Part shown: piece after piece, positions 832 to 52,236 of the stretch
How positions within the stretch are numbered: the stretch's first letter is position 1
Layout: the number at the start of each line of letters is the position of its first letter
IMG/VR virus record: IMGVR_UViG_3300032334_001950
Span: 1 to 64,000 of that record
Length of the DNA: 64,000 nucleotides
Strand: one strand, 5' to 3'
Source of the DNA: a virus
Notes under the pieces: model-generated
Database searches by the model: none
What the model saw: the letters and a program-made list of their open reading frames with translations, nothing else
What the model was told of the DNA's origin: nothing
Program-made: the position numbers and the translations under genes

Positions 832-1062
832 ATGAAGCCCTTCAACGCACAAAAGTTTATCCTTTACTGCATTGCAGGGCTTTTTGCAATACAATTTAGC
901 ATCCATTTAATTGGCGCCGTAGCTTGTTACGTAAAAATCAACGCAACTATACAAGAACAATGCAATAGTTACGACGACCACCTACAAAAAGCATTTGAAA
1001 GCGCCCTCACAACAGTCCTTGCCCTCTTGGTGCATATCAAAGACGATGCCGAGCTGCTATAA
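832..1062 (+). CDS. small membrane protein
   Basis: Hydrophobic N- and C-terminal segments. Confidence 0.5.
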   Translation: MKPFNAQKFILYCIAGLFAIQFSIHLIGAVACYVKINATIQEQCNSYDDHLQKAFESALTTVLALLVHIKDDAELL

Positions 1063-1094
1063 TCATTTTATGCAGGGTAGAAGTAACAACTAAC

Positions 1095-2339: not shown

Positions 2340-4925
2340 CTATTCCTCTTCTTTACCCTCAGGAAGAATTGTTCCGTGTGATTTAAACTTTTGATCAGAA
2401 GCCCGTACCGCCAAGCCCTTCACGTAAGCTCGACCTTTCTTCGAAAACGTAAAAACATCATTAAGGCCCAATTGGTTCTTGCAGCAGTCCATCAACAACG
2501 CAACAAAACGCCGCTGCCCCACCGACTTACTCCCTGTATCTTCGCAATACGCAGCATAACTCGGATACAAATGATGGTTGCTATTGCAATACCGCTCCTG
2601 GGCATCCTTTGCAGCGGGAATCTTCTTACCAATGGCTGCAACATTCTCTGGCGCCACAACAATTTCAGACTGCAACCAATCCACCAAATTATTGCTATTC
2701 AACAGGATCTCATTCTTCACCTTACGCAGCGACGGGACCAACTCATTGGTGTCCAGCAAATAACGACGCATATCACGTTCACCCATCTCCAGCACCCAAT
2801 TGACCAAGCCGGGCAAATAATCTTTCCATACCCCACCAATACTGCCCTTATTAATCTTGATCATATCCTTGGCTTCACTACTCTTGTTGTAAAGCGGCCT
2901 ATTGAACTCAATTGTGAGGCGACGGCGGCTTAATCCACTGGTGGGATCACTGGTCTGAATTGGTTCGTTAGCAGCCACCATAACCATACCCTCATAAACA
3001 AAGGGCTCCCCAATAGCCTTCAACTTCTCTTCATAGCGCAAGTTATCACCGCCCGTCAACGCCTTAAAGATCTGAGCAGAACCGCCATAACGCTCCGAGT
3101 CATTGATCAACGTCAGACGCTTATCCTTCAATGCCGAAACCTCAAACCGGCTCTGCTCCAGCTGGTTCAACGTACTACTGGCAAAGTTACCAGCACCCAC
3201 CATGGCGCAACATAAGTTGGTGAAGGTACTCTTACCGCGACCACCAGGACCAATAACTTCAAGAAAACGTTGAATTTCGTTGCCGCGACCCACTAGGCAA
3301 GCTCGTAACCAAGCTCGCAACACCTGTACACGATCTTCATCACCGTATTGTGTACGCAATAACCAATCACGGATGGGGCCGGGTTCAGCAGAAGGTTCAT
3401 ACGGAAAATCAAGACCCCAAGTCAAAAAATTCTGTTGTTTATGGTCACTGAATTCACCGCTGCTTAGGTCAAGTACGCCATTGGAGAAGGCAAGCATGGA
3501 GCTGTCATCATTCCATTCGGAACAAGACAGAAAACCACGCAACAAGAGGGCAACATCATTAACAAGGTTGTTGCTGTAGCCGCCGGGTAACTCCGCCATC
3601 TTAAGGTGAAATTGCACATTATGCAAAAAGTCCTCCCTATGTGCTTGTTTACGCCAAATCCCCTTGGCGCCGTCATACTGCAACCAATTCTCATACTGCG
3701 GGTCATATCGCCATCCATCACGTAACATCAGCGGAAACAGATTATCCGCTAGCTGCGACGAGGGTGGATTCCGTCCTTTCTTAGGAGCGTTACGGTTGAC
3801 GCCACCAGCAGCAAAATGCTCAGGATTCTCGCCATATTCCTCTTCATCCTCATCCTCCTCTGCTTCCTCCTCATCAATCTCCAACTGTGCATTCACCCGC
3901 TGCACAATTGCTTCCATCGATGGCGCAGCATAACCACCAAGATCCACATACCCATCTTCCTTCGCAATAGCCTTCAATGTCTTCAGGCCGCAGCCACCCT
4001 CAGGGTTTGGCCCACCAGGCAATCGCTCAAACGTAGCCCACTTCGCCTCGCAGCACCCATCTTCAAACGCATCAGACTGAGCCGACCACGCCACCCAGGC
4101 ATGCAACAGGCTGTCATCGATCTGGTGCAGAGCCATGCCGATGCGCACCCATTCGTGGTAATCATCAGCACGTTCAACATTCATTGCACCTAGATACTTG
4201 CAAGCATCCTCAATTACTGATTCCAAATGATACTTAGAATCAGTGTCATAATTCAACGTAATATTCTGGTTGATGAAGTTCGTAGCACCAACACCACGCT
4301 TCCGATACTTTGTACTTGGATATGCTTTTGCAATTTCTGCATAAACCCAGTCCGGTAATTCCGGTGGTGATGCAGCAAATTCAAACCCGCCATGCTCTGT
4401 CGTTCGGTAGCCATCCGTCTCAGGGTGTGCGCCGCAAATAGCACCCTGCCTACTTGACCACAACATCTCAAATGGTGCAGCCCCCAGCTTCAACGTGGCC
4501 CGTTCAGGTAGCCGTCCAATGCTGTCATTACTGACGCGGAACAGCATCCGCATGCGACCTTCTTTCCCACTAGCGATCGTTAACGTCGGAGGAAAAATTG
4601 AAGCGATCGGCCCGCCACCAAGCCGTTCAACAAATTCAATCCCTTCCGGCCCATCAAAATCAACCCAGATCAACCCATACTCATTACTAAATTGCCCCGA
4701 TAGCAACCCGATACCTGTAGCCCGCCCCTCCTCAATCTCCTTCTGGATCTGAGTTACAGTCAGTGGATTAGTGGTCCATCCGGGAAGGTATGCTTTCTTC
4801 CCCCGCAATGGGGTCAACGCCCAATCAACGGGTATCCAATCCAGCTTGATTTCACCAGGTTGGAGGTGTTTACGGGGGCGGCGGGGCTCCAGGGTCGCGG
4901 TGGCGCTCACAGGGGGATATGGCAA
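2340..4925 (-). CDS. bifunctional primase-polymerase / PriCT-2 / D5-like SF3 helicase
   Basis: N-terminal Prim-Pol (WVDFDG, GAHPET), PriCT-2 (DYHEWVRIGMAL), Walker A GPGGRGKST, FKALTGGD. Confidence 0.92.
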   Translation of the reverse strand: MPYPPVSATATLEPRRPRKHLQPGEIKLDWIPVDWALTPLRGKKAYLPGWTTNPLTVTQIQKEIEEGRATGIGLLSGQFSNEYGLIWVDFDGPEGIEFVERLGGGPIASIFPPTLTIASGKEGRMRMLFRVSNDSIGRLPERATLKLGAAPFEMLWSSRQGAICGAHPETDGYRTTEHGGFEFAASPPELPDWVYAEIAKAYPSTKYRKRGVGATNFINQNITLNYDTDSKYHLESVIEDACKYLGAMNVERADDYHEWVRIGMALHQIDDSLLHAWVAWSAQSDAFEDGCCEAKWATFERLPGGPNPEGGCGLKTLKAIAKEDGYVDLGGYAAPSMEAIVQRVNAQLEIDEEEAEEDEDEEEYGENPEHFAAGGVNRNAPKKGRNPPSSQLADNLFPLMLRDGWRYDPQYENWLQYDGAKGIWRKQAHREDFLHNVQFHLKMAELPGGYSNNLVNDVALLLRGFLSCSEWNDDSSMLAFSNGVLDLSSGEFSDHKQQNFLTWGLDFPYEPSAEPGPIRDWLLRTQYGDEDRVQVLRAWLRACLVGRGNEIQRFLEVIGPGGRGKSTFTNLCCAMVGAGNFASSTLNQLEQSRFEVSALKDKRLTLINDSERYGGSAQIFKALTGGDNLRYEEKLKAIGEPFVYEGMVMVAANEPIQTSDPTSGLSRRRLTIEFNRPLYNKSSEAKDMIKINKGSIGGVWKDYLPGLVNWVLEMGERDMRRYLLDTNELVPSLRKVKNEILLNSNNLVDWLQSEIVVAPENVAAIGKKIPAAKDAQERYCNSNHHLYPSYAAYCEDTGSKSVGQRRFVALLMDCCKNQLGLNDVFTFSKKGRAYVKGLAVRASDQKFKSHGTILPEGKEEE

Positions 4926-5008
4926 CGGTAAGGGGGTTAGGGGTAGCTTAGCCCAGTTCCCGACTGCTGAACAGGGGGAGAATCGGGCATATTTTCTATA
5001 TGTTTACG

Positions 5009-5938
5009 TTACGCTGCAGAATCTTGCGCCTGGTCTCCGTCCACTACTTCCATCTCAATTTCAGGGGCGTTAAGGGAAGGTAGGTATTCGTTGTAATACT
5101 TGTCCACAGCCTCCAGCCATTTATTTTTCCACTTCTCAATGGTGGCGCCCTGAATTGCAAACACTTGAGGGCGTTCTACGGTAGCCACCAAGATCATGAG
5201 AATATCCGGTTTGATGCCACAAGTATGTTCAAGGCCCATGGCGTAGGCACCCATTTGCATGCAGCATTTGCTGTATTTCATAAACCCAGCCCGCCTCATT
5301 CCGTACTCATTTTTTGGAGTATCAGTCCCTGGCCACTTGCCAAAATACAGGCCATTGCTGGTTTTCAAGTCACCGAGGACAGTTTTTCCTTTCCATTCGG
5401 CCACAATGTCGGGTGCGCCGGCCCAACCGTTGACCTTCCCCTCTACGACACCCGGATGCCATACACGGCTGATCCCATCCCCGCCAATCGTCCAATTAAA
5501 GTTGTCCCCAACTGGATTTTCAGCCCAGATGACCCGTTCAAAATTGTCCAGTTTCTCCGGCAAACCCCTCCAAAACGGTTCTACAGCCTCTTCAATCGGG
5601 AAATCACGCTCCCCCAGCAGATAGCGCTCCATATAGGAGTGAACAAGTGTCCCCCTGGCAGCGGCAGCTTCTCGGCCACCCGGATTTTTTGCCGCCCAAC
5701 GTTCCAACGCAGCCTTATTCCCACTGGTGGCACTGAGAATTGTCGTCACCGAAGGGAGTGCCCCATACGGTGTACGGTAGTGACGGGAGCCATTTATCTC
5801 AACCCTGGTACTTCCGTCGCTGCGATAGTCCAAGAATTGCTCATACGATGCATCGGCATGGTACGAGGGGTGAATCTTGCGTTCTTCCGCTACCCGCTCC
5901 AGGATTTTTGCGGTGATATCCAGGACGGCAGGGGGCAT
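5009..5938 (-). CDS. PD-(D/E)XK exonuclease
   Basis: LPSVTTIL, RGTLVH, AGAPD..DLKTS, QMGAY motifs; ATG start at 5938 preferred. Confidence 0.85.
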   Translation of the reverse strand: MPPAVLDITAKILERVAEERKIHPSYHADASYEQFLDYRSDGSTRVEINGSRHYRTPYGALPSVTTILSATSGNKAALERWAAKNPGGREAAAARGTLVHSYMERYLLGERDFPIEEAVEPFWRGLPEKLDNFERVIWAENPVGDNFNWTIGGDGISRVWHPGVVEGKVNGWAGAPDIVAEWKGKTVLGDLKTSNGLYFGKWPGTDTPKNEYGMRRAGFMKYSKCCMQMGAYAMGLEHTCGIKPDILMILVATVERPQVFAIQGATIEKWKNKWLEAVDKYYNEYLPSLNAPEIEMEVVDGDQAQDSAA

Positions 5939-8673: not shown

Positions 8674-9009
8674 TTATTCCTCGTCAATTGTTTTTTCAAT
8701 TTGTGTAAGACGCTCCAATATTTTACCTATATGAACGTTATCAAGCCGCTCCAAATCCAAGTTTTCGATTGCCCGCTTGCGGTCTAGCTCCGACTGGCGG
8801 GCAGCGGAAATTAAAAGAACTGGACCGGTATAAGCGGCTTGAAGGCTGAGCATAAAATTTAAGAGCATATAGGGGTATCTATCGGGTTTTAGGGGACTGA
8901 ACGTATTCAAACAAAGCCAAAATACAATGGCAGCTGTCTGAATGCCAACAAATCGCCAAGAACCGATACCATTTGCAACAGCATCCGCCAACCTTTCTCC
9001 TATAGTCAT
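8674..9009 (-). CDS. DUF1003-like membrane protein
   Basis: IGSWRFV..Q, D.YPYMLLN..LSLQAAY.GP..L motifs. Confidence 0.75.
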   Translation of the reverse strand: MTIGERLADAVANGIGSWRFVGIQTAAIVFWLCLNTFSPLKPDRYPYMLLNFMLSLQAAYTGPVLLISAARQSELDRKRAIENLDLERLDNVHIGKILERLTQIEKTIDEE

Positions 9010-9181
9010 AACAAAAATCCGCCTTTCCTATATTCTAGGAGAGACGGATTTGCGTTCTTGTTTTATATTTAATAATTACGCCGCTTCTTCCTCTTCTTCA
9101 GGCAGCATTGAAAACACGTTTTCCTGTTGCAAAAAGCGCTCCAGGTCCATCTTGCATTTCCAGTAGCCATCTGCAAACTCA

Positions 9182-9451
9182 TCACCGATCATCGGTTGCC
9201 CCAGGAGCAGGGTATAATTCCGGGTCAGGTGACGCAACATCTTCTTGGTGTTGGCCGAGGTAACTTTTGCCATAGGTTTTGGGAAGATCTTCTTGAGAAA
9301 AGGGAATAGTAGAAATACTGAAGCTGCCATCGTCGAGTTCACGGAAGAATAACTCATCGCCTTCTTTCCAGCCCAGACGATCTACCAGTTCATCGGGGAA
9401 GACAATAGTGCCATCCTCGTCAACCGGCAAACTATAAACAGGGTTACTCAT
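9182..9451 (-). CDS. AbrB/MazE/SpoVT-family DNA-binding protein
   Basis: IVFPDELVDRLGWKEGDEL swapped-hairpin signature. Confidence 0.75.
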   Translation of the reverse strand: MSNPVYSLPVDEDGTIVFPDELVDRLGWKEGDELFFRELDDGSFSISTIPFSQEDLPKTYGKSYLGQHQEDVASPDPELYPAPGATDDR

Positions 9452-9758
9452 CTTTAAGTGTGGCACCAGCAAAATACTCTTGGACAACCTCTGCAAGCAT
9501 AAGTTTCAGCTCATTTTTGTTAACAAACCCGCATGGATCAAACCCGTCAGATTTTGTAATGCCGTTATCAGCTTCGTAGTGCTGGTTGGCAATATAAAGC
9601 AAATCTCCAGTGACATCGTAAACTTGCTTGCCATTGATGTCTTGAAAAGCAAAACAGTGGTTTTCTGCGATTCGCATCAGCGAAGCGTAGGCCAGGGCAA
9701 CTGTCGTAAAGGATACTTTGTACCCTTCTGGATCCTTGAGGAAATACTGATCGGCCAT
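9444..9758 (-). CDS. hypothetical protein
   Basis: 104-aa ORF overlapping the next gene by 8 nt. Confidence 0.6.
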   Translation of the reverse strand: MADQYFLKDPEGYKVSFTTVALAYASLMRIAENHCFAFQDINGKQVYDVTGDLLYIANQHYEADNGITKSDGFDPCGFVNKNELKLMLAEVVQEYFAGATLKDE

Positions 9759-9846
9759 GGGAGGGCAGGCAGGACGTTGGTAGTTTACCGTGGCGTGAAG
9801 CAGAGAGCAACGCCTAATTTGAAAAAAATTAGGAGTTGGTTAGGAG

Positions 9847-9874
9847 TTGACTTCCGAGGTAAATACGCTATGAT
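9847..9874 (+). promoter_or_regulatory. sigma70-type promoter of ncRNA locus
   Basis: TTGACT-16 nt-TATGAT directly upstream of the structured element at 9881. Confidence 0.6.
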
Positions 9875-9880
9875 ATTACC

Positions 9881-9997
9881 GATGCACGTAGCGCGTTGGG
9901 CCCATAGCCCAAAAGGCGGCGTGTCAACACCGAGGTAGCTCCTCATATGTAAGGTCGCTCCTTACAGTGTACCTCCGGCTAAACGGAGGGGTGCGTT
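9881..9997 (+). ncRNA. putative structured ncRNA
   Basis: Closing stem GATGCAC/GTGCGTT enclosing hairpins TTGGGC/GCCCAA, GAGG/CCTC, GTAAGG/CCTTAC, CCTCCG/CGGAGG. Confidence 0.5.
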
Positions 9998-10041
9998 CAT
10001 TAACCTTATAAATGAACCCAGCGGGAAAGGGACCCGCGCCT

Positions 10042-10111
10042 CAACGCTAAGCCAAATGGTTAGGCAATCCGACAAGGGGTCCTGTACCTGGTTCGATTCC
10101 AGGAGCGTTGA
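10042..10111 (+). tRNA. tRNA-like element or pseudo-tRNA (no canonical anticodon arm)
   Basis: Acceptor CAACGCT/AGCGTTG, D arm GCC..TGGTTA GGC, perfect T arm CCTGG-TTCGATT-CCAGG; anticodon arm only 14 nt. Confidence 0.6.
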
Positions 10112-10118
10112 TTTTTGT

Positions 10119-10646
10119 TTAAGTTGATTCTTCTAATCCTTTACGTATAATGGCCCATTCTTTTGGTGTTGGCCACCAGCCACCTTCATGTTTGTTTAAC
10201 AATTCCAATGCTTGTTCTTTGTTGGTAAGCACAGGAGGTTTCCAATCATGAGTATGCAACCAAGGCATGTTTTCTTGAACAGAACTCCAGCGAATTGGTA
10301 CTATATAACCGTACAAAACACTTTGGATATGTACATGCCCATGTCTGTTACCATCTTTTTCAGTAGGCTTTCTATCTGTAATCCATGGGCATGACTCCCA
10401 CCATGCAACACTTGGATATTCATCATCCTTAGTTGGTTCAATTGTTTCTAACGGTAATATTTCTACAACATCACGAAAATTTTCTTCTTTATTAATAAAA
10501 TAATACCCATCATCTGTATAATTACGCGAGCCAGCTTCGTGAGGATAACAACAAGTTCCCATAAATTTTGTTTGATATTCAACAATTTCTCCAGTGCGAA
10601 GACGTACCTTCTGCCCTGGCACACAAGTGTTCAAGTTAACAGTCAT
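10119..10646 (-). CDS. hypothetical accessory protein
   Basis: 175-aa AT-rich ORF; C-terminus resembles that of 23052..23384. Confidence 0.6.
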   Translation of the reverse strand: MTVNLNTCVPGQKVRLRTGEIVEYQTKFMGTCCYPHEAGSRNYTDDGYYFINKEENFRDVVEILPLETIEPTKDDEYPSVAWWESCPWITDRKPTEKDGNRHGHVHIQSVLYGYIVPIRWSSVQENMPWLHTHDWKPPVLTNKEQALELLNKHEGGWWPTPKEWAIIRKGLEEST

Positions 10647-10697
10647 GATTGTTAATGCGATGGTAAATGAATCAGAATAAAAACTAAATCAATCATT

Positions 10698-11288
10698 TCA
10701 TATTGTTTTTCTGCGTTCGTAAACCAGCGAATACGATTGCACCAATTGCGCTTGCCCTGGTGCCCCCGGAGCATCAGCAATCAAGTCGGAACGCAACCGA
10801 TCTTTATCAGGTAGTTTCTCTTGCTTGACCTCCAGCACATGGCCATCGCGGATCCTGGTAACAGTTGTCACTTTTTCCAGGCCATATTCCTGTTGGTCCT
10901 CTTCAGCCCATAGCTGCCAGTTGTCCACCAACTTAGGCTTGGCGCGACGAATCACAGCCTGATACTTGTTGCCCTTGATCTTGTTGTCAATCAACCCCTG
11001 CTGATAGACGTGCTTAATGATCTGCACAATCTTTTCTTTGTTGGATACCCACGCATCCTTGGCCTCTTTGATTTCATTTAACTCCTCTTCTAACATTTGA
11101 ATGTTGCGATCACAGCTCTTAATCAGGTCTACGATCGCATCAAACTTAGATGCCTGGCGAGAAGTTAAAGCTGCGATGTACTGCTCCAATCGATCCTTTT
11201 CATCGTCGGTAACATCCGGTAATTCGGTTGTAAATTTGACGTTGACGAGAGATTCAGAAAGTTGTTGGTAGGTTGTGGGGTCAGCCAT
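10698..11288 (-). CDS. Siphovirus Gp157-like protein
   Basis: Coiled coil, KFDAIV..IK, C-terminal PDKDRLR...GAQL pattern. Confidence 0.6.
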   Translation of the reverse strand: MADPTTYQQLSESLVNVKFTTELPDVTDDEKDRLEQYIAALTSRQASKFDAIVDLIKSCDRNIQMLEEELNEIKEAKDAWVSNKEKIVQIIKHVYQQGLIDNKIKGNKYQAVIRRAKPKLVDNWQLWAEEDQQEYGLEKVTTVTRIRDGHVLEVKQEKLPDKDRLRSDLIADAPGAPGQAQLVQSYSLVYERRKTI

Positions 11289-12358: not shown

Positions 12359-13744
12359 GTGCCTGATTACTCAGAAATGCTCGATGATTGGCAGCGTCGC
12401 CTAGAAGCTGCGCCAACATTTGGTCCCACTTTTGAGGGGTTTGATTATAAAACGCCAGAATACAATAGGCTTACCGAAACTCAATTGGCATTAGAAGATC
12501 TTTCCGCCAATGAGAATGCAAGCCCTGCTGTAGTCAAAAGAGCGGCCAACCAATTTAAAGATGCTTTCATTGCAAATAGACAAAATTTACAGGCGCAACT
12601 TGGGCCAAGCGTTACTCCGGTCAATGAATTACTAGATAGATTCTATGCGGCATCCCCTGGGGCGGCTAATTTTAGGGCGAGAGGAGTACCTGACGATTAC
12701 AGGCACGAAATCTATAGCCATTTATACCCTTGGGAGGCTAATTTATCCCCAGATTATCGCAATTTTCAAGGCAATGAATTAAATTTACAAGCATCACCAA
12801 TTACCCCCCTAAATGAAGGGGTTGCGGTCTGGACAGATAGGGGGATGGCTAAGCGAAACTCCCTTAGAGGTTTACCTGCGAATGATCCAGCAAATATTGG
12901 AAATTATTTCAAAGATTTTGTTGGCATAGTAGCAGAAGATGATGATGCGTATGCAATTCCAGGAGGGGAAGAGATTTGGCGTAAGCAATACGGTGAGGGC
13001 AAAGATCAAAGTCAAAAATTAGCGGATATTGGCGCACTTTACAGGGAAAAATACATAGAGCCAGCAACGCAACGTTTTCAGAACCTAGCACGGGCGCAGG
13101 CCCCCATGGCAGAGGCTGCGTTGAGAGGGTACAACGGTGCATCTAGAGCCCTATCCGAGCACCTAATGTCTTATGTTGATCTTGCCAATAACGAACTTAT
13201 ACAGTCCGGTCAACGCGCACCATTTGACAATGCATTTGTTGAACGCAACCTTCTGTATGGCACTGACCCAGTAACAGCCGGACTTCAAGGTGCAAAAGAA
13301 ATGTTACGTGCAGCGCCGGCAGGTCTTGCTGGTGGGGCAGCATTAAGTGCATTGTCCCCTGATGTAGCACGATCAGTAGCACAAGGTAAGTATGGCCAAG
13401 CTGCCACACAAACCGTAAAAGATTTAGCTGGGGGAGCAGCTGCTGATTTGGCAATACGTTCTGCAGGACAGGGGCTTCAACGTGTCGCCCCTCAGATAGC
13501 AGCGCGGGTTAACCCTCTAGTAGCAGCCGCCGCTGATGTTGCGGTACCAGCGGCAGTTGGTGCAGGTCTCTTTATGCAAGGACAGAAAGGCTCCCCTCTA
13601 AATACCCTGGTCAATGCCGCATCCAATACACCCTTCGGATTGAAGGTAAATCTCAAAACGGATATAGGACGCATGGCCGGCAATGAGCTGCAATACGCTT
13701 TAGGTCGATTGTTGGGCGGGAAGATCCCCTATATGGGTCGTTAA
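12359..13744 (+). CDS. putative internal virion/ejected protein (RMAG motif)
   Basis: GTG start 26 nt after TAGAAT; Ala/Gly-rich C-terminus; RMAG at 13670. Confidence 0.6.
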   Translation: MPDYSEMLDDWQRRLEAAPTFGPTFEGFDYKTPEYNRLTETQLALEDLSANENASPAVVKRAANQFKDAFIANRQNLQAQLGPSVTPVNELLDRFYAASPGAANFRARGVPDDYRHEIYSHLYPWEANLSPDYRNFQGNELNLQASPITPLNEGVAVWTDRGMAKRNSLRGLPANDPANIGNYFKDFVGIVAEDDDAYAIPGGEEIWRKQYGEGKDQSQKLADIGALYREKYIEPATQRFQNLARAQAPMAEAALRGYNGASRALSEHLMSYVDLANNELIQSGQRAPFDNAFVERNLLYGTDPVTAGLQGAKEMLRAAPAGLAGGAALSALSPDVARSVAQGKYGQAATQTVKDLAGGAAADLAIRSAGQGLQRVAPQIAARVNPLVAAAADVAVPAAVGAGLFMQGQKGSPLNTLVNAASNTPFGLKVNLKTDIGRMAGNELQYALGRLLGGKIPYMGR

Positions 13745-13753
13745 CTTACCCAC

Positions 13754-13779
13754 AAAAAAGGGGGAGTGTTACCTCCCCC
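13754..13779 (-). terminator. intrinsic terminator between convergent genes
   Basis: GGGGGAG/CTCCCCC stem with A6 tract (U6 on - strand). Confidence 0.7.
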
Positions 13780-13785
13780 ACAAGA

Positions 13786-14712
13786 TCAGAAGCTTATTTC
13801 TCCCGTGTCAGCATCCCTGGCTCCAAGCAATGCACGGGTGCTACCACCACTCGATTCGATCGGAGGCAAGCTCAGGTCCACACCGGGCTTCAGGGCATGA
13901 ACCCCTAGCTCCCTAGCACACTGCGCAAAGAAACTGGCGGCGTAAATAGTGGGAGGGCAGGTCGTCCACACGTCCTCAATGAAGTCGATATCTTCTGCCT
14001 TTTTAGGGAAGAAATCACCAACGGTTTTGGCAGTAGGTACAACCCAGGACTCAGGGTAGCTGATCCAGCTCTTGGCTTTATCACCACCGTACAGCTGGGA
14101 GCCGAACGTAGGAGTAAAGATTGCAGCTGCCGTCTGCTTAGGATCAAATCCGGTAGCAGCCTTCAGCCCCATGGCATCCGCAAAGGCAGACTCCAACTGC
14201 TCAATGAAGTTCTGGTAAGCATCACAGAACAAGTTGGATGCACCGCCGTGGATTGAGAGGATCAACGGTTTTTTGTGGACTGCAACCCCATTGGCATCTA
14301 CTAGGAAGATCAGGACCAGGCGACGACGACGGTAGGGGCTGGGCTGACCGGGGTTCTCTTCCTCCCACTTGTCGTAGAGGGCAGAATCACGGGGGTACAT
14401 TCCCTCGATGGCGCTCTCCTTGGAGTTTTCGATGAAGGTGACATCCTTACGGAAACCACAATGGATCACAATCATGCGGGGAGTCTTAAAGAAAAGCCCT
14501 TCATTCTTGTCACCATTGTTGTACACATGGGTGTACTCCTTGGCATCTGGGAACTGCTTTACGTTCCCGGTCCAGCCAATACGGGACAGCGCAGTATCTT
14601 TCAGAAATAAGCCTGACTGGCTTTTGTCATTGAGGATCTGTGCATTGACAAGATCACGCATTACACCCTGATACTTTTCGGTGTTCAGATAACGGTCAAG
14701 TACGCCTGGCAT
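13786..14712 (-). CDS. recombination/replication-associated protein (DUF5895-like)
   Basis: 308 aa next to SSB; QILND..GLF and R.VLIFLVD..HKKPL.L..HG resemble cyanobacterial DUF5895 from memory. Confidence 0.5.
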   Translation of the reverse strand: MPGVLDRYLNTEKYQGVMRDLVNAQILNDKSQSGLFLKDTALSRIGWTGNVKQFPDAKEYTHVYNNGDKNEGLFFKTPRMIVIHCGFRKDVTFIENSKESAIEGMYPRDSALYDKWEEENPGQPSPYRRRRLVLIFLVDANGVAVHKKPLILSIHGGASNLFCDAYQNFIEQLESAFADAMGLKAATGFDPKQTAAAIFTPTFGSQLYGGDKAKSWISYPESWVVPTAKTVGDFFPKKAEDIDFIEDVWTTCPPTIYAASFFAQCARELGVHALKPGVDLSLPPIESSGGSTRALLGARDADTGEISF

Positions 14713-14785
14713 TGTTCGAGTACGTTTGGGACAAAGCCAACCCCAATCGGGGCCAGCTGGTGCCAGCCTAGATCACGGCGGGCAC

Positions 14786-14827
14786 AAAAAAATGGGCAAC
14801 CTGTAAATTTTTCTTACAAGTTGCCCA
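14786..14827 (-). terminator. hairpin with U tract
   Basis: TGGGCAAC/GTTGCCCA stem plus A7. Confidence 0.5.
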
Positions 14828-14903
14828 AATTGTATTAGTTAAACTTATGAGACCATCCTTTAATAACGCATTGCCCAATTAAAGGATGAGCCCTTTACCT
14901 TTC

Positions 14904-15590
14904 TTACATAGGAATCCTTTCTTCATCAACAACCTTAACCGCTGCTCGTTTCACCACATGGGAAGTTGCCGCAGCAGGCTCTTCCGTAGCTTCTTGGCGG
15001 TTCTTATTCTTACCGAAGACGCTATAAAGCCCAGACCGTACATGAAACTGGTACGATCCACGCTCCTGTCCATCTTTTGCTGTCCAAGTGTTATAACGCA
15101 ACGTAGCCTCCAATGCCATCTGGCGCCCAACATGGATCAATTGTTCCAGCCGCCGCGCATCATCGTGCCATGCCACCATCTTAAAACTGAGACTATCGTC
15201 CCAATTATGGTTCAACAATGTTTGCCCCGGTGCAGAACACATCAAACTGAACGCCAATAAATCCTCCCGTGTCTTTTCATTGATGAAGCCAACACCACCA
15301 GCAAGATGCACCACGTTAAGGACAGGCCCACCCAAAACTTGGATAGGTTGGTTCGGTACCAAGTACATCTTGTAATCTTGCCGATTGGGGTACAACCGAC
15401 CACTGATCAATAGCTTCACCCCAGGCTGGAATACATCAAATGTTTCACCTGCAGCCCGATTCGGAACAACGTAAAGCGGGACCTCTGCGCTGCTTCCTTT
15501 GTGACCCGGCAAGTTAACCTGCATAAAACGCAACCCGCTTTCCGTAAAATGCTCGCCCTTGTAGGTGCCGGTTGCCAGTAGCGTGTTCAT
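14904..15590 (-). CDS. single-stranded DNA-binding protein (two OB folds)
   Basis: Two SSB-like halves (LLISGRL; GRQMALEATLRYNTWTAKDGQER) and acidic tail DEERIPM. Confidence 0.75.
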   Translation of the reverse strand: MNTLLATGTYKGEHFTESGLRFMQVNLPGHKGSSAEVPLYVVPNRAAGETFDVFQPGVKLLISGRLYPNRQDYKMYLVPNQPIQVLGGPVLNVVHLAGGVGFINEKTREDLLAFSLMCSAPGQTLLNHNWDDSLSFKMVAWHDDARRLEQLIHVGRQMALEATLRYNTWTAKDGQERGSYQFHVRSGLYSVFGKNKNRQEATEEPAAATSHVVKRAAVKVVDEERIPM

Positions 15591-16327: not shown

Positions 16328-17557
16328 GTGGCGTTATTTCCCGGTACAAACTTTAATTATTTTGGTAGCCAACAAAACACAGATGATGCCGACGAGTGGA
16401 ATAACGTCCCACAAGATAGTACAATATCTTTCGATCCAAGCTCACTGGACAAATCTGCAGGGAATTTCGGTGGTCAATATAGAGATGTAGCACTTGATCC
16501 CGGTCAATTTGCTAGGGCTTTTGCGCAGAAAATTTCCCAGGGTTACGGGGCAGTTGATAGGGCGTTAGGGGGAGTTTTGCCTGGTGGTGCAGATAGCCCA
16601 TATATTGGGGCATCTACTACAGCGGCTGGACGCAAGGGTGCAGTTGACGCAGCAAGTACCTGGGCTGTAGATGCTGCGTTACCGTTGGCGAATAAAGCCG
16701 CACTTGCCCTAGTCGACAGGGCCCAGAAGAACCCGGCAGCACAAATATCATTGCAAACGTTGAATGATATTCGACAAAGAGTAAGCAACACACTTGGTAA
16801 AGATGTCGTAGCATACGTCGGGCCAAAACAGTATCCCCATTTTGATCCATCAGATGAATTTTCAAAGGGGCCTGCTATCGCCTTACGGCCCTCCACACCC
16901 ACTACAGATTTGGGCATTATGCTATATGGGTCTAAACCGCAAAATCTTAGAGAATTTGAAAATACGCTTGTCCACTCACCCATAGCTTTACATGAGTTGG
17001 GGCATGCACTTAATACAGGAGACCCATTTGCAAATAGATTAGCAGAATCTCGAAACATGGATATCAATCGATTTACAGGGTATAGTCGCACGCCAAATTA
17101 CATAGCAGGTATTGGGGCGGCCACTTCAGATAAAAACGGAAACAAAAGTCTTTTGGCATCGGGCATACAGGGAGCCTTAGAATATTTAGCCGCGCCAGGC
17201 ACTCGGCATACGCTTGCAGAAGAAGCTTTGGCAAGCAGAAATGCAATAAATCTTGCTGATGAATTTAATTTACCTCGTGGCATTCCGGGACTTGGGGCTG
17301 CTTTTGGTACGTATGCTACATCTAGGGCCATGCCAGGATTCACTACGGGAGTCGCGTCTGAATTAGTCACACGCGGGGCTAGAGCATTTGGCAATGCAAT
17401 TGGTGATTACATTATTGACCCGATAGGTGACCGCATTAGGGGAAATGACTACAATCCCCTTGAACAACAATTGCGCAAGTACGGATACAATGAAAAAGAT
17501 TACAGGTTAGCCCAGCCAGGCGGATTTGGTGCACCTGTCCAAGTGCAGCACAAGTAG
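16328..17557 (+). CDS. putative zinc metallopeptidase-domain virion protein
   Basis: ALHELGHAL (HExxH) with downstream EEALAS third-ligand pattern. Confidence 0.6.
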   Translation: MALFPGTNFNYFGSQQNTDDADEWNNVPQDSTISFDPSSLDKSAGNFGGQYRDVALDPGQFARAFAQKISQGYGAVDRALGGVLPGGADSPYIGASTTAAGRKGAVDAASTWAVDAALPLANKAALALVDRAQKNPAAQISLQTLNDIRQRVSNTLGKDVVAYVGPKQYPHFDPSDEFSKGPAIALRPSTPTTDLGIMLYGSKPQNLREFENTLVHSPIALHELGHALNTGDPFANRLAESRNMDINRFTGYSRTPNYIAGIGAATSDKNGNKSLLASGIQGALEYLAAPGTRHTLAEEALASRNAINLADEFNLPRGIPGLGAAFGTYATSRAMPGFTTGVASELVTRGARAFGNAIGDYIIDPIGDRIRGNDYNPLEQQLRKYGYNEKDYRLAQPGGFGAPVQVQHK

Positions 17558-49968: not shown

Positions 49969-52236
49969 ATGTTTATTGATAATGACTTTCCTAAGCTGTT
50001 AGGTGCGGAGCTTTATCGCCCCCACCCGGCTTACATCGTCGAAATGGCCGCAGAACCGGTTGAATAACAGCCGCCTTTTTGAGTAATCAAAAAGTGATAA
50101 CCCGGTGAATTGCTGGAAACCCTTCTAAAAGAATTGAACCCTACAACGTAATCAGTAATGATAAGCGTGATAGGTTGAAAAGTTTCAATTGTCGGGCAAT
50201 CAGCAGCCAAGCTTCCTAGGAATAGGTGGAAGGTTCAACGACTAGGGTACACGATCCAGAACGGATTATGAAACCCATTAGCGCCGGGGCTCCCAAAATT
50301 GAATGTAATTTTTAAATTTACGTTCAATGGCAAAATCAGAATTCTGGTAAATAGCTTGTATTGCCTTGGCATCTTTTTTGTATCCGGGCAAATGAAACAA
50401 GTTGCTACCATTTTTGGTAAATTCTGATTTGATCGGCAACTCTACGCTTGATATTAATTTGATCCATGTTTGGAGTTGTACAGCAAATTTGATTGACGCG
50501 GTGGTGATTTTAAAGCGGCGATCTGTTACAGAACCGTCGCCATCCCAAGCCCCACGCAAAAAATGAGGCACTAAGTTTTCTTGCAGTGTTGTCGTGATCT
50601 CTAAAGTTTTAGATTTATTGGGTAAAATACCCAATTTCATCAAATCTTTAACCAAGGCAACTCTACTTAAAACCAATGACTTTTGTGGTAATGATTTTTT
50701 ACCACGTATTGTTGAAATCTTGGTTTGCAATTTTGGGGCATTTGAGCCCAGCTCGTTGCGAAATCTTTCAAGAATTAAACAATCCTCTTCTTTTAATGCG
50801 ATGCGAGCAGCCGTCAATCTAGGATTAATATTTCCATCGGTTGCCAATAGACCAAGAAAATAAGCCTTTCCTTCTGTATCAATTTTTTCAAAATAACGCT
50901 CGTTGTAATTGAAAAAAGAGTAAGTTTCGCCGGCTTTATTTTTTCTAAGCCCCGTCTGCTCAAAAAAAGATAGAAGGTTGAATTTTTTTCTGGCATTGTA
51001 AAAAGCAACCATTGATATATTTAGTTCTTTTGCTGCATCAGCATCAGACATCGTAGCAGAAAGTTCTGCTACCACTTCAAATGAAAGATTTAAGCGATTG
51101 TGCCGAGCCATGGGGAGCGTGATATAGTCTGTGCCCCACCGATGACAAAGGTGGGGAACAATGGATTGGGAAGCTCAATCCTAGCACGTGTTGTTCATGA
51201 CTTCACCAAACAGCCTGGCCAAACCGTTCAGCTGGACCGGTACCGTTTCTGGGGTAACCCCGGTACCAAGGCCAACCGTGAGCGTACCCAGGACCAGACC
51301 ATTGGTACCGCTAACAGCCGTTCCATTGTGAAGGACAAAGTTCTGGTGTCTCTCCGCGAGTACACTGGTCCTGCCGACCCGAACAATGCCAACGCTCCCA
51401 GCACCTTTAAGATTGCTCGGGAAACGCTGATGACCGCTCAGCGCTTGCTGCTGGACACCGGGAACCTTAACATGTTCCACCAGTCCATTGGTTCGCTGAC
51501 CCTGCTGGATGACTACCGCCGCTGGCGTGATCGCGTGCTGCTGGACGAACTGTATAAGTCCTTCTCACGCGGCCAAGCCTCCGATACCCAAGGTGGTTAC
51601 TACTACCCCAACAACCACACCAACTCCAGTGGTACCGTTAGCACCTACACTGCTACCGAATATGCTTCTGAGCGTTACAAGTTTAACGTGAAGAGCGACC
51701 TTCTGGAAGTTGTCAAAGGTCTGCGTAAGCGTAACGTTCCCGTCTTCCAAGATGGTTACTACCGCTGTATTGCTGATCCCTCCTTCATGAAGGATCTGCG
51801 TGCGGACCAAGGCTTCCGTGAAGTTGCGCGTTACCCTGGCATGGGCCAAGGCAACCCCATGATGGGCGCCATGGGTCCCAACCAAGCCATCTACGGTGGT
51901 GGTCAATACGGCCAAGCTGCTTTTGTGGCTGGTGAACCGATCATGCCTACCGGCTTTGTGTTTGAAGGTGTTCGTTTCTTCGAATCGACCAACTTCACCA
52001 ACCTGACCGTCACCTGCGACATCAACGATGGCGCTGGTTCCACGACCCACACCACGCCTCCCGGCCTGTTCTTCGGTCCCCAGGCTGTTGGTATCGGTAT
52101 CGGCGGCCCCAATGCTCAAGTCCTCATTAACAACAACGACGACTTCAGCCGCTTTATCATCCTGATTTGGCAGCTGTACGCCGGTTTTGCTAACCTGAAC
52201 AAGGACTTCTGCACCGTCGCATTCACCATCGTTTGA
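49969..52236 (+). CDS. major capsid protein, join(49969..50060,51189..52236), 379 aa
   Basis: Exon 1 MFIDNDFPKLLGAELYRPHPAYIVEMAAEP joins in frame to VVVHDFTKQPGQTV; G.FEGVRFFES motif; strongly biased codon use. Confidence 0.88.
50061..51188 (+). mobile_element. group I intron
   Basis: 5' exon ends in U (P1 CGGU/GCCG), terminal G, P AATTGCTGGAAAC, Q AATCAGCAG, R GTTCAACGACTA, S GATATAGTCT, P3 CCCGGTG/CGCCGGG, P8 GCTCCC/GGGAGC, 9-bp P10. Confidence 0.93.
50278..51111 (-). CDS. LAGLIDADG homing endonuclease, antisense to intron
   Basis: Two motifs YFLGLLATDGNI and HFLRGAWDGDGSV; N-terminal HTH-like segment; AT-rich. Confidence 0.9.
   Translation of the reverse strand: MARHNRLNLSFEVVAELSATMSDADAAKELNISMVAFYNARKKFNLLSFFEQTGLRKNKAGETYSFFNYNERYFEKIDTEGKAYFLGLLATDGNINPRLTAARIALKEEDCLILERFRNELGSNAPKLQTKISTIRGKKSLPQKSLVLSRVALVKDLMKLGILPNKSKTLEITTTLQENLVPHFLRGAWDGDGSVTDRRFKITTASIKFAVQLQTWIKLISSVELPIKSEFTKNGSNLFHLPGYKKDAKAIQAIYQNSDFAIERKFKNYIQFWEPRR

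What the first reader, a model, noticed from the sequence alone, without database searches (positions are those of the whole stretch)
9847..9997. Promoter-driven multi-hairpin ncRNA in the early arm
Seen: TTGACT-16-TATGAT followed at the expected TSS by ~117 nt whose ends pair, enclosing 4-5 hairpins. Two adjacent hairpins repeat AGG-T(A/C)GCT-CCT. The last hairpin plus closing stem mimics a T arm and acceptor stem, and is preceded by TGTACCT as in the downstream tRNA-like element. It also contains anti-SD-like CTCCT twice and ACCTCC. Inference: an undescribed phage sRNA (tRNA mimic, protein sponge or translation regulator).
Basis: partly seen in the sequence, partly recalled or inferred. Interest (0 to 1): 0.7.

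Follow-up and report, generated by a model that had tools for sequence, protein, structure and literature searches.

The report
Cyanophage structured RNA with tRNA mimic
The flagged stretch is the front part of a real, promoter-driven non-coding RNA gene of a freshwater cyanophage that ends in a tRNA look-alike unable to read codons, and pieces of it recur in unrelated phages of the same hosts, so it probably has a function, which is still unknown.

Summary
The window is an S-EIV1-like cyanophage. A sigma-70-type promoter (9847-9874) sits between two minus-strand genes. It drives a plus-strand non-coding unit of about 233 nt (9881-10113).

The unit has these parts:
- Hairpin I (9884-9924).
- A 37-nt insert holding the two AGG-TMGCT-CCT hairpins (9927-9963).
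- Hairpins III, IV and V.
- A 71-nt tRNA-like cloverleaf (10041-10111) whose anticodon arm is a 3-bp stem capped by GACAA.

No terminator separates the flagged 117 nt from the cloverleaf.

Compensatory changes in relatives support hairpins I, IV, V and the cloverleaf, and one change supports its G19:C56 elbow pair. The two repeated hairpins are missing from two of the four closest relatives.

The cloverleaf also occurs, unannotated, in the tRNA clusters of six T4-like Synechococcus phages. Hairpin I occurs in two of them. Rfam 15 has no matching family.

My best reading is that RNase P and 3' trimming split the transcript into a 5' structured RNA and a non-decoding tRNA mimic that binds protein. 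The processing and the function are inferred. Evidence of expression is weak.

The parts
9847..9874 (+). Sigma-70-type promoter: -35 TTGACT (9847-9852), 16-nt spacer, -10 TATGAT (9869-9874). Inferred start near 9881.
   Evidence: 10 of 12 matches. The -10 box (TATGAT, TAGAAT or TATAAT) is kept in front of the RNA in L003, L006, L009, L011, S-EIVl, L099, L100/L102, L101, L103 and L104, although the upstream DNA differs.
9884..9924 (+). Hairpin I. The core is 9892-9918: a 3-bp outer helix, an invariant asymmetric internal loop (G opposite AAG), a 6-bp inner helix and an NNAUA pentaloop.
   Evidence: MFE fold. Over 8 sequences and 9 pairs, 98.6% of cells are paired, 6 of 9 pairs change on both sides and 0 of 500 shuffles reach the covariation score. 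The motif is also in the cyanomyoviruses S-SZBM1 and DSL-LC03.
9927..9963 (+). 37-nt lineage-specific insert. It holds hairpin IIa (9932-9944) and most of hairpin IIb (9948-9966), made of two ~19-nt tandem units that start at 9933 and 9952.
   Evidence: Present in the window, in L006 and in DNA contigs of runs X2 and X4. Absent from L003 and L009. Other sequence stands there in L011 and S-EIVl.
9972..9989 (+). Hairpin III: CCUCCG / CGGAGG with a GCUAAA loop.
   Evidence: The 3' strand ACGGAGGGGU is invariant in the 6 close relatives, but S-EIVl has a different hairpin there.
9995..10017 (+). Hairpin IV: an A/U-rich 7-bp stem with a 9-nt loop.
   Evidence: 2 of 7 pairs change on both sides and 98% of cells are paired. 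It aligns to S-EIVl.
10021..10037 (+). Hairpin V: GCGGG / CCCGC with a 7-nt loop, ending 3 nt before the tRNA-like element.
   Evidence: The C:G to U:A compensatory change is seen in 3 of the 6 sequences that have letters there.
10041..10111 (+). Non-decoding tRNA-like cloverleaf. It has a 7-bp acceptor stem plus a U(-1):A73 pair, a D arm with GG, a mini anticodon arm (UCC-GACAA-GGG, 10068-10078) and a T arm CCUGG-UUCGAUU-CCAGG. No CCA is encoded. A U run follows at 10112-10116.
   Evidence: ARAGORN finds no tRNA in the window and Rfam gives no tRNA match at E <= 10. Over 16 sequences and 21 pairs, 93.7% of cells are paired, 14 pairs change on both sides and 0 of 500 shuffles reach the covariation score.

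Best explanation
The finding is the 5' two-thirds of one plus-strand non-coding transcription unit of about 233 nt (9881-10113) in an S-EIV1-like cyanophage.

Shown here:
- The unit has its own conserved promoter.
- It has a modular 5' domain: hairpin I, a dispensable duplicated insert, and hairpins III to V.
- It ends in a tRNA-shaped element whose anticodon arm is replaced by a 3-bp stem capped with a GAYAA pentaloop, so it cannot decode.
- Hairpin I and the tRNA-like element are conserved, with compensatory changes, in S-EIV1-like phages and in T4-like Synechococcus myoviruses.

Inferred:
- RNase P cuts the primary transcript at the 5' end of the cloverleaf (about 10040/10041), and the 3' end is trimmed after the discriminator. 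This would release a 5' RNA of about 160 nt whose 3' end is protected by hairpin V, and a tRNA mimic of about 71 nt.
- Both products act by shape-specific and loop-specific protein binding, with the mimic as a decoy or competitor for a tRNA-binding host or phage protein. They do not act by decoding or by anti-SD base pairing.
For: 1. No coding frame is conserved. Relatives differ by 2-nt and 37-nt indels inside the region.
2. The promoter is kept in changed contexts.
3. Covariation supports the structure in three counts. The 3' module has 97.7% of cells paired and 12 of 38 pairs with changes on both sides, against at most 3 in slid controls. Hairpin I has 6 of 9 such pairs. The cloverleaf has 14 of 21.
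4. The tertiary G19:C56 pair becomes A:U in S-SZBM1.
5. G:U pairs occur in stems: 4 of 8 at the first pair of hairpin I's inner helix and 6 of 16 at D-stem position 13:22. These would be A.C mismatches on the other strand, so the plus-strand RNA is the folded molecule.
6. No terminator-like site lies between 9997 and 10041.
7. In the myoviruses the element sits 2-6 nt from flanking tRNAs inside tRNA arrays. It must therefore be released by the tRNA-processing enzymes there.
8. UU follows the acceptor stem in all 10 S-EIV1-like sequences aligned and in S-RIM8.
9. The acceptor and T stems covary freely, while the D arm, the pentaloop and the T loop are nearly invariant. This fits recognition by shape plus specific loops.
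10. ARAGORN finds no ordinary tRNA in the window, yet the phage keeps this element under its own promoter.
11. Contigs of two RNA libraries from two studies cover 9965-10113 and 9965-10035 of variant copies.
Against: - No transcript ends, processing sites or binding partner have been observed.
- The RNA-library contigs could be DNA carry-over, and the tool itself says 'not shown transcribed'.
- The X19 contig runs 154 nt past the cloverleaf, so read-through into a downstream gene occurs or the contig is DNA.
- Only 3 of 50 related records matched model R1. Two of those three were already known carriers. Most records are fragments, but four of 53-66 kb also lacked it, so the unit is not universal in the lineage.
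- The counts rest on 7 to 16 related sequences. The alignment was fitted to the model, and the sequences were picked by a pattern that demanded at least 5 of 6 inner pairs.
- The 5' domain varies from about 125 to about 350 nt among carriers. It might be little more than a leader.
Confidence: 0.55

Rival explanations
1. This is an autonomous sRNA of about 117 nt (9881-9997) closed by pairing of its ends. Its last hairpin plus closing stem mimic a T arm and acceptor stem. Its CUCCU/ACCUCC motifs act as anti-SD-like regulators or sponges.
For: The closed form is only 1.4 kcal/mol above the MFE in the window. CUCCU stands twice and ACCUCC once. CU-rich stretches also lie in the variable middle of L011 and S-EIVl.
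Against: No 7-bp closing stem can form in 0 of 3 close relatives. Compensatory changes place the 5' strand in hairpin I. The two CUCCU hairpins are missing in L003 and L009. The hairpin III loop is not a T loop. No terminator follows 9997.
Confidence: 0.08
2. The 5' domain is only a leader and processing cassette. It supplies a promoter and stable hairpins for making the tRNA mimic and has no function of its own in trans.
For: In S-CREM1 the mimic follows tRNA-Met directly, with no 5' domain. The length and content of the 5' domain vary widely. A GC-rich hairpin a few nt upstream of a tRNA recurs as the Rfam abiF motif in S-CREM1 and S-SZBM1.
Against: Hairpin I keeps an invariant internal loop and an NNAUA loop across two phage lineages while its stems covary. 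That argues for specific recognition rather than a spacer.
Confidence: 0.2
3. This is an unusual decoding tRNA, such as a suppressor or a doublet or frameshift reader, expressed with a long leader.
For: ARAGORN calls the L008 copy tRNA-Stop(tta) and copies in 8 loci (two of them, L100 and L102, alike) 'tRNA-??? (ca)'. The copies in S-RIM32 and DSL-LC03 score 28.8 and 29.6 bits on the Rfam tRNA model, whose cut-off is 29.
Against: The universal core is a 3-bp stem with a 5-nt GAYAA loop in 15 of 16 sequences. That is too short for a 7-nt anticodon loop. The window copy is found neither by ARAGORN nor by Rfam. The discriminator base varies among A, U and C, so there is no consistent identity set for charging.
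Confidence: 0.05
4. This is a DNA-level element, such as an origin, a recombination site or an integration site with tRNA-derived sequence, or else a decaying tRNA pseudogene with chance hairpins.
For: It lies between divergently placed genes in the replication-gene arm. tRNA-like sequence is common at phage attachment sites (recalled). S-PM2 was listed with '25 tRNAs, one as a pseudogene' (PMC3037559, Table 1 footnote, passages seen). Whether that is this element I could not check.
Against: G:U pairs are tolerated on the plus strand only. A promoter is conserved. The compensatory changes include a tertiary pair. Two pattern scans of 185,579 species genomes gave 0 hits. Conservation holds between phages whose structural protein is only 52-56% identical.
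Confidence: 0.05

Closest known systems
Canonical phage tRNA genes and the 'tRNA pseudogene' noted for S-PM2
   Same: It has a cloverleaf with acceptor, D and T arms and the elbow-forming GG and UUCGA letters. In myoviruses it sits inside tRNA arrays.
   Different: The anticodon arm is a 3-bp stem with a GAYAA pentaloop, so there is no anticodon. It is conserved with covariation across lineages and is not decaying. In S-EIV1-like phages it has its own promoter and a structured 5' domain.
MALAT1-mascRNA, and the tRNA-like/hairpin fusion RNAs (TMERs) of murine gammaherpesvirus 68 (recalled; only listings seen)
   Same: A tRNA-like cloverleaf is co-transcribed with other structured RNA and used by tRNA-processing enzymes to make the two products. 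The tRNA-like part does not decode.
   Different: Those are eukaryotic systems and unrelated in sequence. In TMERs the tRNA-like part is 5' of the hairpins. Processing has not been shown here.
Bacterial Y RNAs of the YrlA type (PMC4201824, passages read)
   Same: They are non-coding RNAs with a tRNA-mimicking D arm, T arm and acceptor. They occur in phages too. Some are cut by RNase P and receive CCA.
   Different: In YrlA the order is permuted (T, acceptor stem-loop, D), the RNA has a Ro60-binding stem and the gene lies next to a TROVE-domain gene. Here the order is that of a tRNA, and no TROVE gene is found in the 72-kb record.
Phage T4 stable RNAs C and D ('species 1 and 2') in its tRNA cluster (recalled; search found no paper with that term)
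   Same: They are small stable phage RNAs of unknown function, encoded with tRNAs and matured by tRNA-processing enzymes.
   Different: No sequences were compared. The host group and architecture differ.
Rfam abiF RNA motif (RF03085)
   Same: It is a GC-rich hairpin placed directly 5' of a tRNA in cyanomyoviruses: 55.7 bits in S-SZBM1 and 52.2 bits in S-CREM1. The S-EIV1-like RNAs L100 to L104 carry an expanded look-alike at the same place.
   Different: The window has no match at E <= 10. L103 reaches only 28.4 bits against a cut-off of 37.

Membership tests
tRNA (RF00005) | 7-bp acceptor stem, D arm with GG, and T arm with a UUCRA loop | tested here: met
   Sequence. Covariation: the acceptor helix has 6 of 8 pairs and the T stem 3 of 5 pairs with changes on both sides.
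tRNA (RF00005) | 5-bp anticodon stem with a 7-nt loop holding an anticodon | tested here: not met
   15 of 16 sequences have a 3-bp stem with a GAYAA pentaloop. When aligned to model R1, real tRNAs need 4 extra letters there.
tRNA (RF00005) | Detection by ARAGORN, or an Rfam score at or above 29 bits | tested here: not met
   The window gives 0 tRNAs and no tRNA match at E <= 10. Relatives are called 'tRNA-??? (ca)' or score 28.8-29.6 bits.
tmRNA | tRNA-like domain formed by the 5' and 3' ends of the RNA, plus a tag reading frame | tested here: not met
   ARAGORN finds no tmRNA. The acceptor stem closes locally at 10041-10111.
YrlA / bacterial Y RNA | Adjacent Ro60 (TROVE) gene and a permuted T, acceptor-loop, D order | tested here: not met
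   PF05731 has no match in the 72-kb record, while the controls ring in 2 genomes. The record is 84% complete. The arm order is D then T.
Anti-SD / Yfr1-like regulatory sRNA | A conserved, exposed CU-rich seed | tested here: not met
   The CUCCU hairpins are absent from L003 and L009. Rfam gives no Yfr match. Targets were not tested.
abiF RNA motif (RF03085) | A match to the Rfam model directly 5' of the tRNA(-like) gene | tested here: not met
   The window has no match. L103 scores 28.4 bits, below the cut-off of 37.
RNase P / RNase Z substrate | Cleavage at the mature 5' and 3' ends | not testable with these tools
   Only inferred, from the tRNA shape, the placement inside tRNA arrays and the UU that follows the stem in the S-EIV1-like copies and S-RIM8.

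The most novel reading that the evidence does not exclude
Two unrelated cyanophage lineages, S-EIV1-like and T4-like, share a dedicated non-decoding tRNA mimic, often together with the hairpin-I RNA. The mimic works as an uncleavable pseudo-substrate or decoy for a Synechococcus tRNA-directed protein, either an anti-phage tRNA nuclease or a tRNA-dependent metabolic enzyme. On this reading, phages that carry no ordinary tRNA still keep this one gene under a strong promoter.
Probability: 0.25. Interest if true: 0.85.

Novelty: new variant of a known kind. Interest (0 to 1): 0.66.

Why it matters
Phage tRNA genes are usually explained by codon supply or by replacing tRNAs that host defences cut. 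Here a tRNA-shaped RNA that cannot decode is kept under selection in two unrelated groups of Synechococcus phages. In one group it is the only tRNA-type gene and has its own promoter. That points to a function for the tRNA shape outside translation, in an ecologically dominant host-virus system.

The work also gives two concrete RNA motifs that are not in Rfam: the GAYAA-capped cloverleaf and hairpin I. Both can be tested in cultured pairs, S-EIV1 with Synechococcus PCCC-A2c and S-PM2 with WH7803. Genome annotations currently leave these regions blank.

Tried and rejected
- BLAST of the window region against phages, E. coli genomes and plasmids found nothing.
- One viral scan was wasted on a pattern with the wrong number of N.
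- L010 from the metagenome scan is a chance hit in a tRNA cluster. It scores 10 bits on R1.
- Which tRNA isotype the mimic derives from stayed inconclusive.
  - The tRNA features annotated in AJ630128 do not hold tRNA sequence at their coordinates.
  - ARAGORN found no Glu or Gln tRNA in that stretch.
  - The best pairwise scores were weak and scattered over Asn, Pro and Gly.
  - E. coli genomes gave nothing. Plasmids gave only short partial matches, E 0.5 to 6.
  - A recalled likeness of the D arm to Glu/Gln-type tRNAs therefore remains untested.
- There is no TROVE gene, so a Y-RNA reading is dropped.
- A 12-codon frame from 10012 to the stop at 10048-10050 is kept in the window group but has no ribosome-binding site, and its reading in S-EIVl is entirely different (a 44-codon frame). 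I rejected it by reading the sequences.
- RNA-library cover: parts of the unit without contigs in X19 and X20 say nothing. Contig ends were not interpreted.
- Host genomes: two pattern scans of genome contigs gave 0 hits. Both patterns fixed the S-EIV1-type acceptor or T-arm letters, so a host counterpart with other stems is not excluded. No cyanobacterial genome handle could be obtained.
- Supplements of PMC10690425, with 8,495 candidate viral RNAs, could not be seen and might list this element.

Full report
**Setting.** The window is the first 64 kb of a 72-kb IMG/VR virus record that is 84% complete. Its 762-aa virion protein is 52.6% identical to that of Synechococcus phage S-EIVl, the only named relative. 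At least 598 IMG/VR stretches encode relatives of that protein. The finding lies in a 360-nt gap, 9759-10118, between two minus-strand genes. Both genes have homologues elsewhere: 9444-9758 and 10119-10646.

**The observation.**
- TTGACT-16-TATGAT stands at 9847-9874, with 10 of 12 consensus matches.
- The 117 nt at 9881-9997 fold to -51.4 kcal/mol, z = -4.0.
- The two AGG-TMGCT-CCT hairpins are real. They belong to two tandem units of about 19 nt.
- The ends can pair in the window, giving -50.0 against -51.4 kcal/mol. No such stem is possible in the three nearest relatives.
- No terminator-like site follows 9997. The sequence continues through hairpin IV (9995-10017) and hairpin V (10021-10037) into a tRNA-shaped element (10041-10111), which is followed by a U run.
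- ARAGORN finds no tRNA in the window. Rfam gives nothing at E <= 10 for 9000-11000, and nothing for this region in the whole-window scan.

**Close relatives.**
- Flanking-gene and pattern searches gave L003, L006 and L011 from IMG/VR and L008 and L009 from metagenomes.
- L003 and L009 lack exactly 37 nt (9927-9963), the piece holding the two repeated hairpins. L006 has them, as do DNA contigs of runs X2 and X4. L011 carries other sequence there.
- The indels are 2 nt and 37 nt long, so no reading frame is conserved.
- The unit sits in at least three different gene contexts and always brings a -10 box with it. In L006, L009 and L011 the -35 TTGACA lies in the loop of the upstream gene's terminator hairpin.

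**Structure of the 3' module.** I built covariance model R1 from hairpin III through the cloverleaf. In the model-fitted alignment of 7 sequences:
- 97.7% of 258 cells are standard pairs.
- 12 of 38 pairs change on both sides, against at most 3 when the partners are slid.
- 0 of 500 shuffles reach the observed values.

**Structure of hairpin I.** The count covers 8 sequences and 9 pairs.
- 98.6% of cells are paired, 6 of 9 pairs change on both sides and 0 of 500 shuffles reach the covariation score.
- The single G opposite AAG/AAA and the ..AUA end of the loop never vary.
- Caveat: these 8 sequences were picked by a pattern that required at least 5 of 6 inner pairs. The outer helix was not required by that pattern, and it also covaries.

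**Wider family.**
- R1 matched 3 of 50 related records. Two were the known carriers. The third was the isolate S-EIVl, at 44.7 bits, inside an unannotated 430-nt gap.
- A degenerate pattern found six more IMG/VR contigs. Three of five tested carry the lineage's structural protein at 54-56% identity.
- In these contigs the 5' domain ranges from about 125 nt to about 350 nt, while the cloverleaf stays constant.
- BLAST then showed the same cloverleaf, unannotated, in 10 GenBank records of six T4-like Synechococcus phages: S-RIM8, S-PM2, S-CREM1, S-SZBM1, S-RIM32 and DSL-LC03.
- There it lies inside tRNA arrays, 2-6 nt from neighbouring tRNAs in S-PM2 and S-CREM1.
- S-SZBM1 and DSL-LC03 also carry hairpin I just upstream of it.

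**Covariation of the cloverleaf.** The count covers 16 sequences and 21 pairs.
- 93.7% of 334 cells are paired.
- 14 pairs change on both sides (2 of 500 shuffles reach this).
- 57 cells change on both sides, and the covariation score is 0.522 against 0.168 (0 of 500 shuffles reach either).
- Unpaired cells are concentrated at the outermost U:A pair (4 of 16) and at the innermost acceptor position (10 of 16).
- The mini anticodon stem changes completely (CCC/GGG, UCC/GGG, GCA/UGC, GUG/CAC) under a constant GACAA loop. That loop is GAUAA in S-SZBM1. L008 alone has a 10-nt loop, and ARAGORN calls it tRNA-Stop.
- The elbow pair G19:C56 is G:C in 13 sequences and A:U in S-SZBM1. It appears broken only in L009 and L011, where MAFFT shifted the D loop by one column.
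- G:U pairs in several stems show that the plus-strand RNA, not the DNA, is what folds.
- The discriminator base varies among A, U and C. That argues against one charging identity.

**What it most likely does.** The shape, its position in tRNA arrays and the UU that follows the stem in the S-EIV1-like copies and S-RIM8 point to maturation by RNase P and by 3' processing. This is inferred, not shown. In the window that would give a 5' RNA of about 160 nt ending in hairpin V, and a tRNA mimic of about 71 nt. Stems vary freely while the D arm, the pentaloop and the T loop are nearly fixed. That suggests recognition by a protein that reads tRNA shape plus specific loops. I recall that G-A-N-A-A pentaloops in phage boxB RNAs fold like GNRA tetraloops, but I did not test this. 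I could not identify the protein partner.

**Expression.** Contigs of two RNA libraries from two studies cover variant copies of 9965-10113 (depth 6) and 9965-10035 (depth 8). The tool warns that DNA can be present in such libraries, so I count this only as a weak hint.

**Literature.**
- Searches on S-EIV1, cyanophage tRNA-like RNAs, pseudo-tRNAs and T4 stable RNAs found no description of this RNA.
- Sullivan et al. 2010 (PMC3037559) list S-PM2 with 25 tRNAs, 'one tRNA as a pseudogene' (Table 1 and its footnote; passages read). That may be this element, but I could not verify it.
- The YrlA paper (PMC4201824, passages read) describes a permuted, Ro60-linked tRNA mimic. No TROVE gene is present here.
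- I read passages of PMC10690425. Its supplements were not available.

**Verdict.** This is a real, conserved, modular non-coding RNA gene. A genuine non-decoding tRNA mimic forms the 3' end of the same unit and is shared across cyanophage lineages.

Noticed in passing
window 50052-50354 (+): Rfam group I catalytic intron (RF00028) at 53.6 bits against a cut-off of 50, E = 8e-11. It lies among the structural and late genes. The host gene was not examined.
   Followed up: no
L092 1646-1750 (S-EIVl record about 16462-16566): Just downstream of the S-EIVl cloverleaf there is a second element. It has a 7-bp end-pairing stem and a T-arm-like GCAGG-UUCAAUC-CCUGC hairpin. Its overall fold is not better than shuffles (z = -0.77), and ARAGORN does not call it.
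   Followed up: partly
L006 about 9270-9300 (-), L009 about 620-660, L011 about 1030-1065 (-), L092 about 1345-1385, L101, L103: In relatives the upstream gene's terminator-like hairpin and U run overlap the RNA promoter. In L006, L009 and L011 the -35 TTGACA sits in the hairpin loop.
   Followed up: no
L107 (S-CREM1) 4781-5603; L109 (S-SZBM1) 534-570: tRNA clusters of cyanomyoviruses are interleaved with the Rfam motifs wcaG, manA and abiF. The abiF motif lies 4-5 nt upstream of a tRNA in both phages. The S-EIV1-like RNAs L100 to L104 carry an expanded abiF-like helix at the same place before the mimic.
   Followed up: partly
L111 (AJ630128 168556-173383): The tRNA features annotated in this S-PM2 record lie inside a large CDS and do not hold tRNA sequence. 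ARAGORN finds the real cluster at locus 13383-15303.
   Followed up: partly
window 10124-10151 (+): A second promoter-like site, TTGATT-16-TATAAT, with 10 of 12 matches. It lies right after the cloverleaf and inside the 3' end of the minus-strand gene. The number of such sites in the 2-kb scan is no more than chance.
   Followed up: no
window 9182-9496 (-) and 8674-9009 (-): Neighbouring small ORFs match MazE/AbrB-type antitoxin (PF04014, E = 5e-6) and DUF1003 (E = 1e-21). ORF 9182-9496 overlaps 9444-9758 at its start.
   Followed up: no
L010 1198-1285 (-): This metagenome tRNA cluster has 8 tRNAs. It also holds a 90-nt CCA-ending element that ARAGORN does not call. It matches tRNA-Sec only weakly, at 25 bits against a cut-off of 47.
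   Followed up: no
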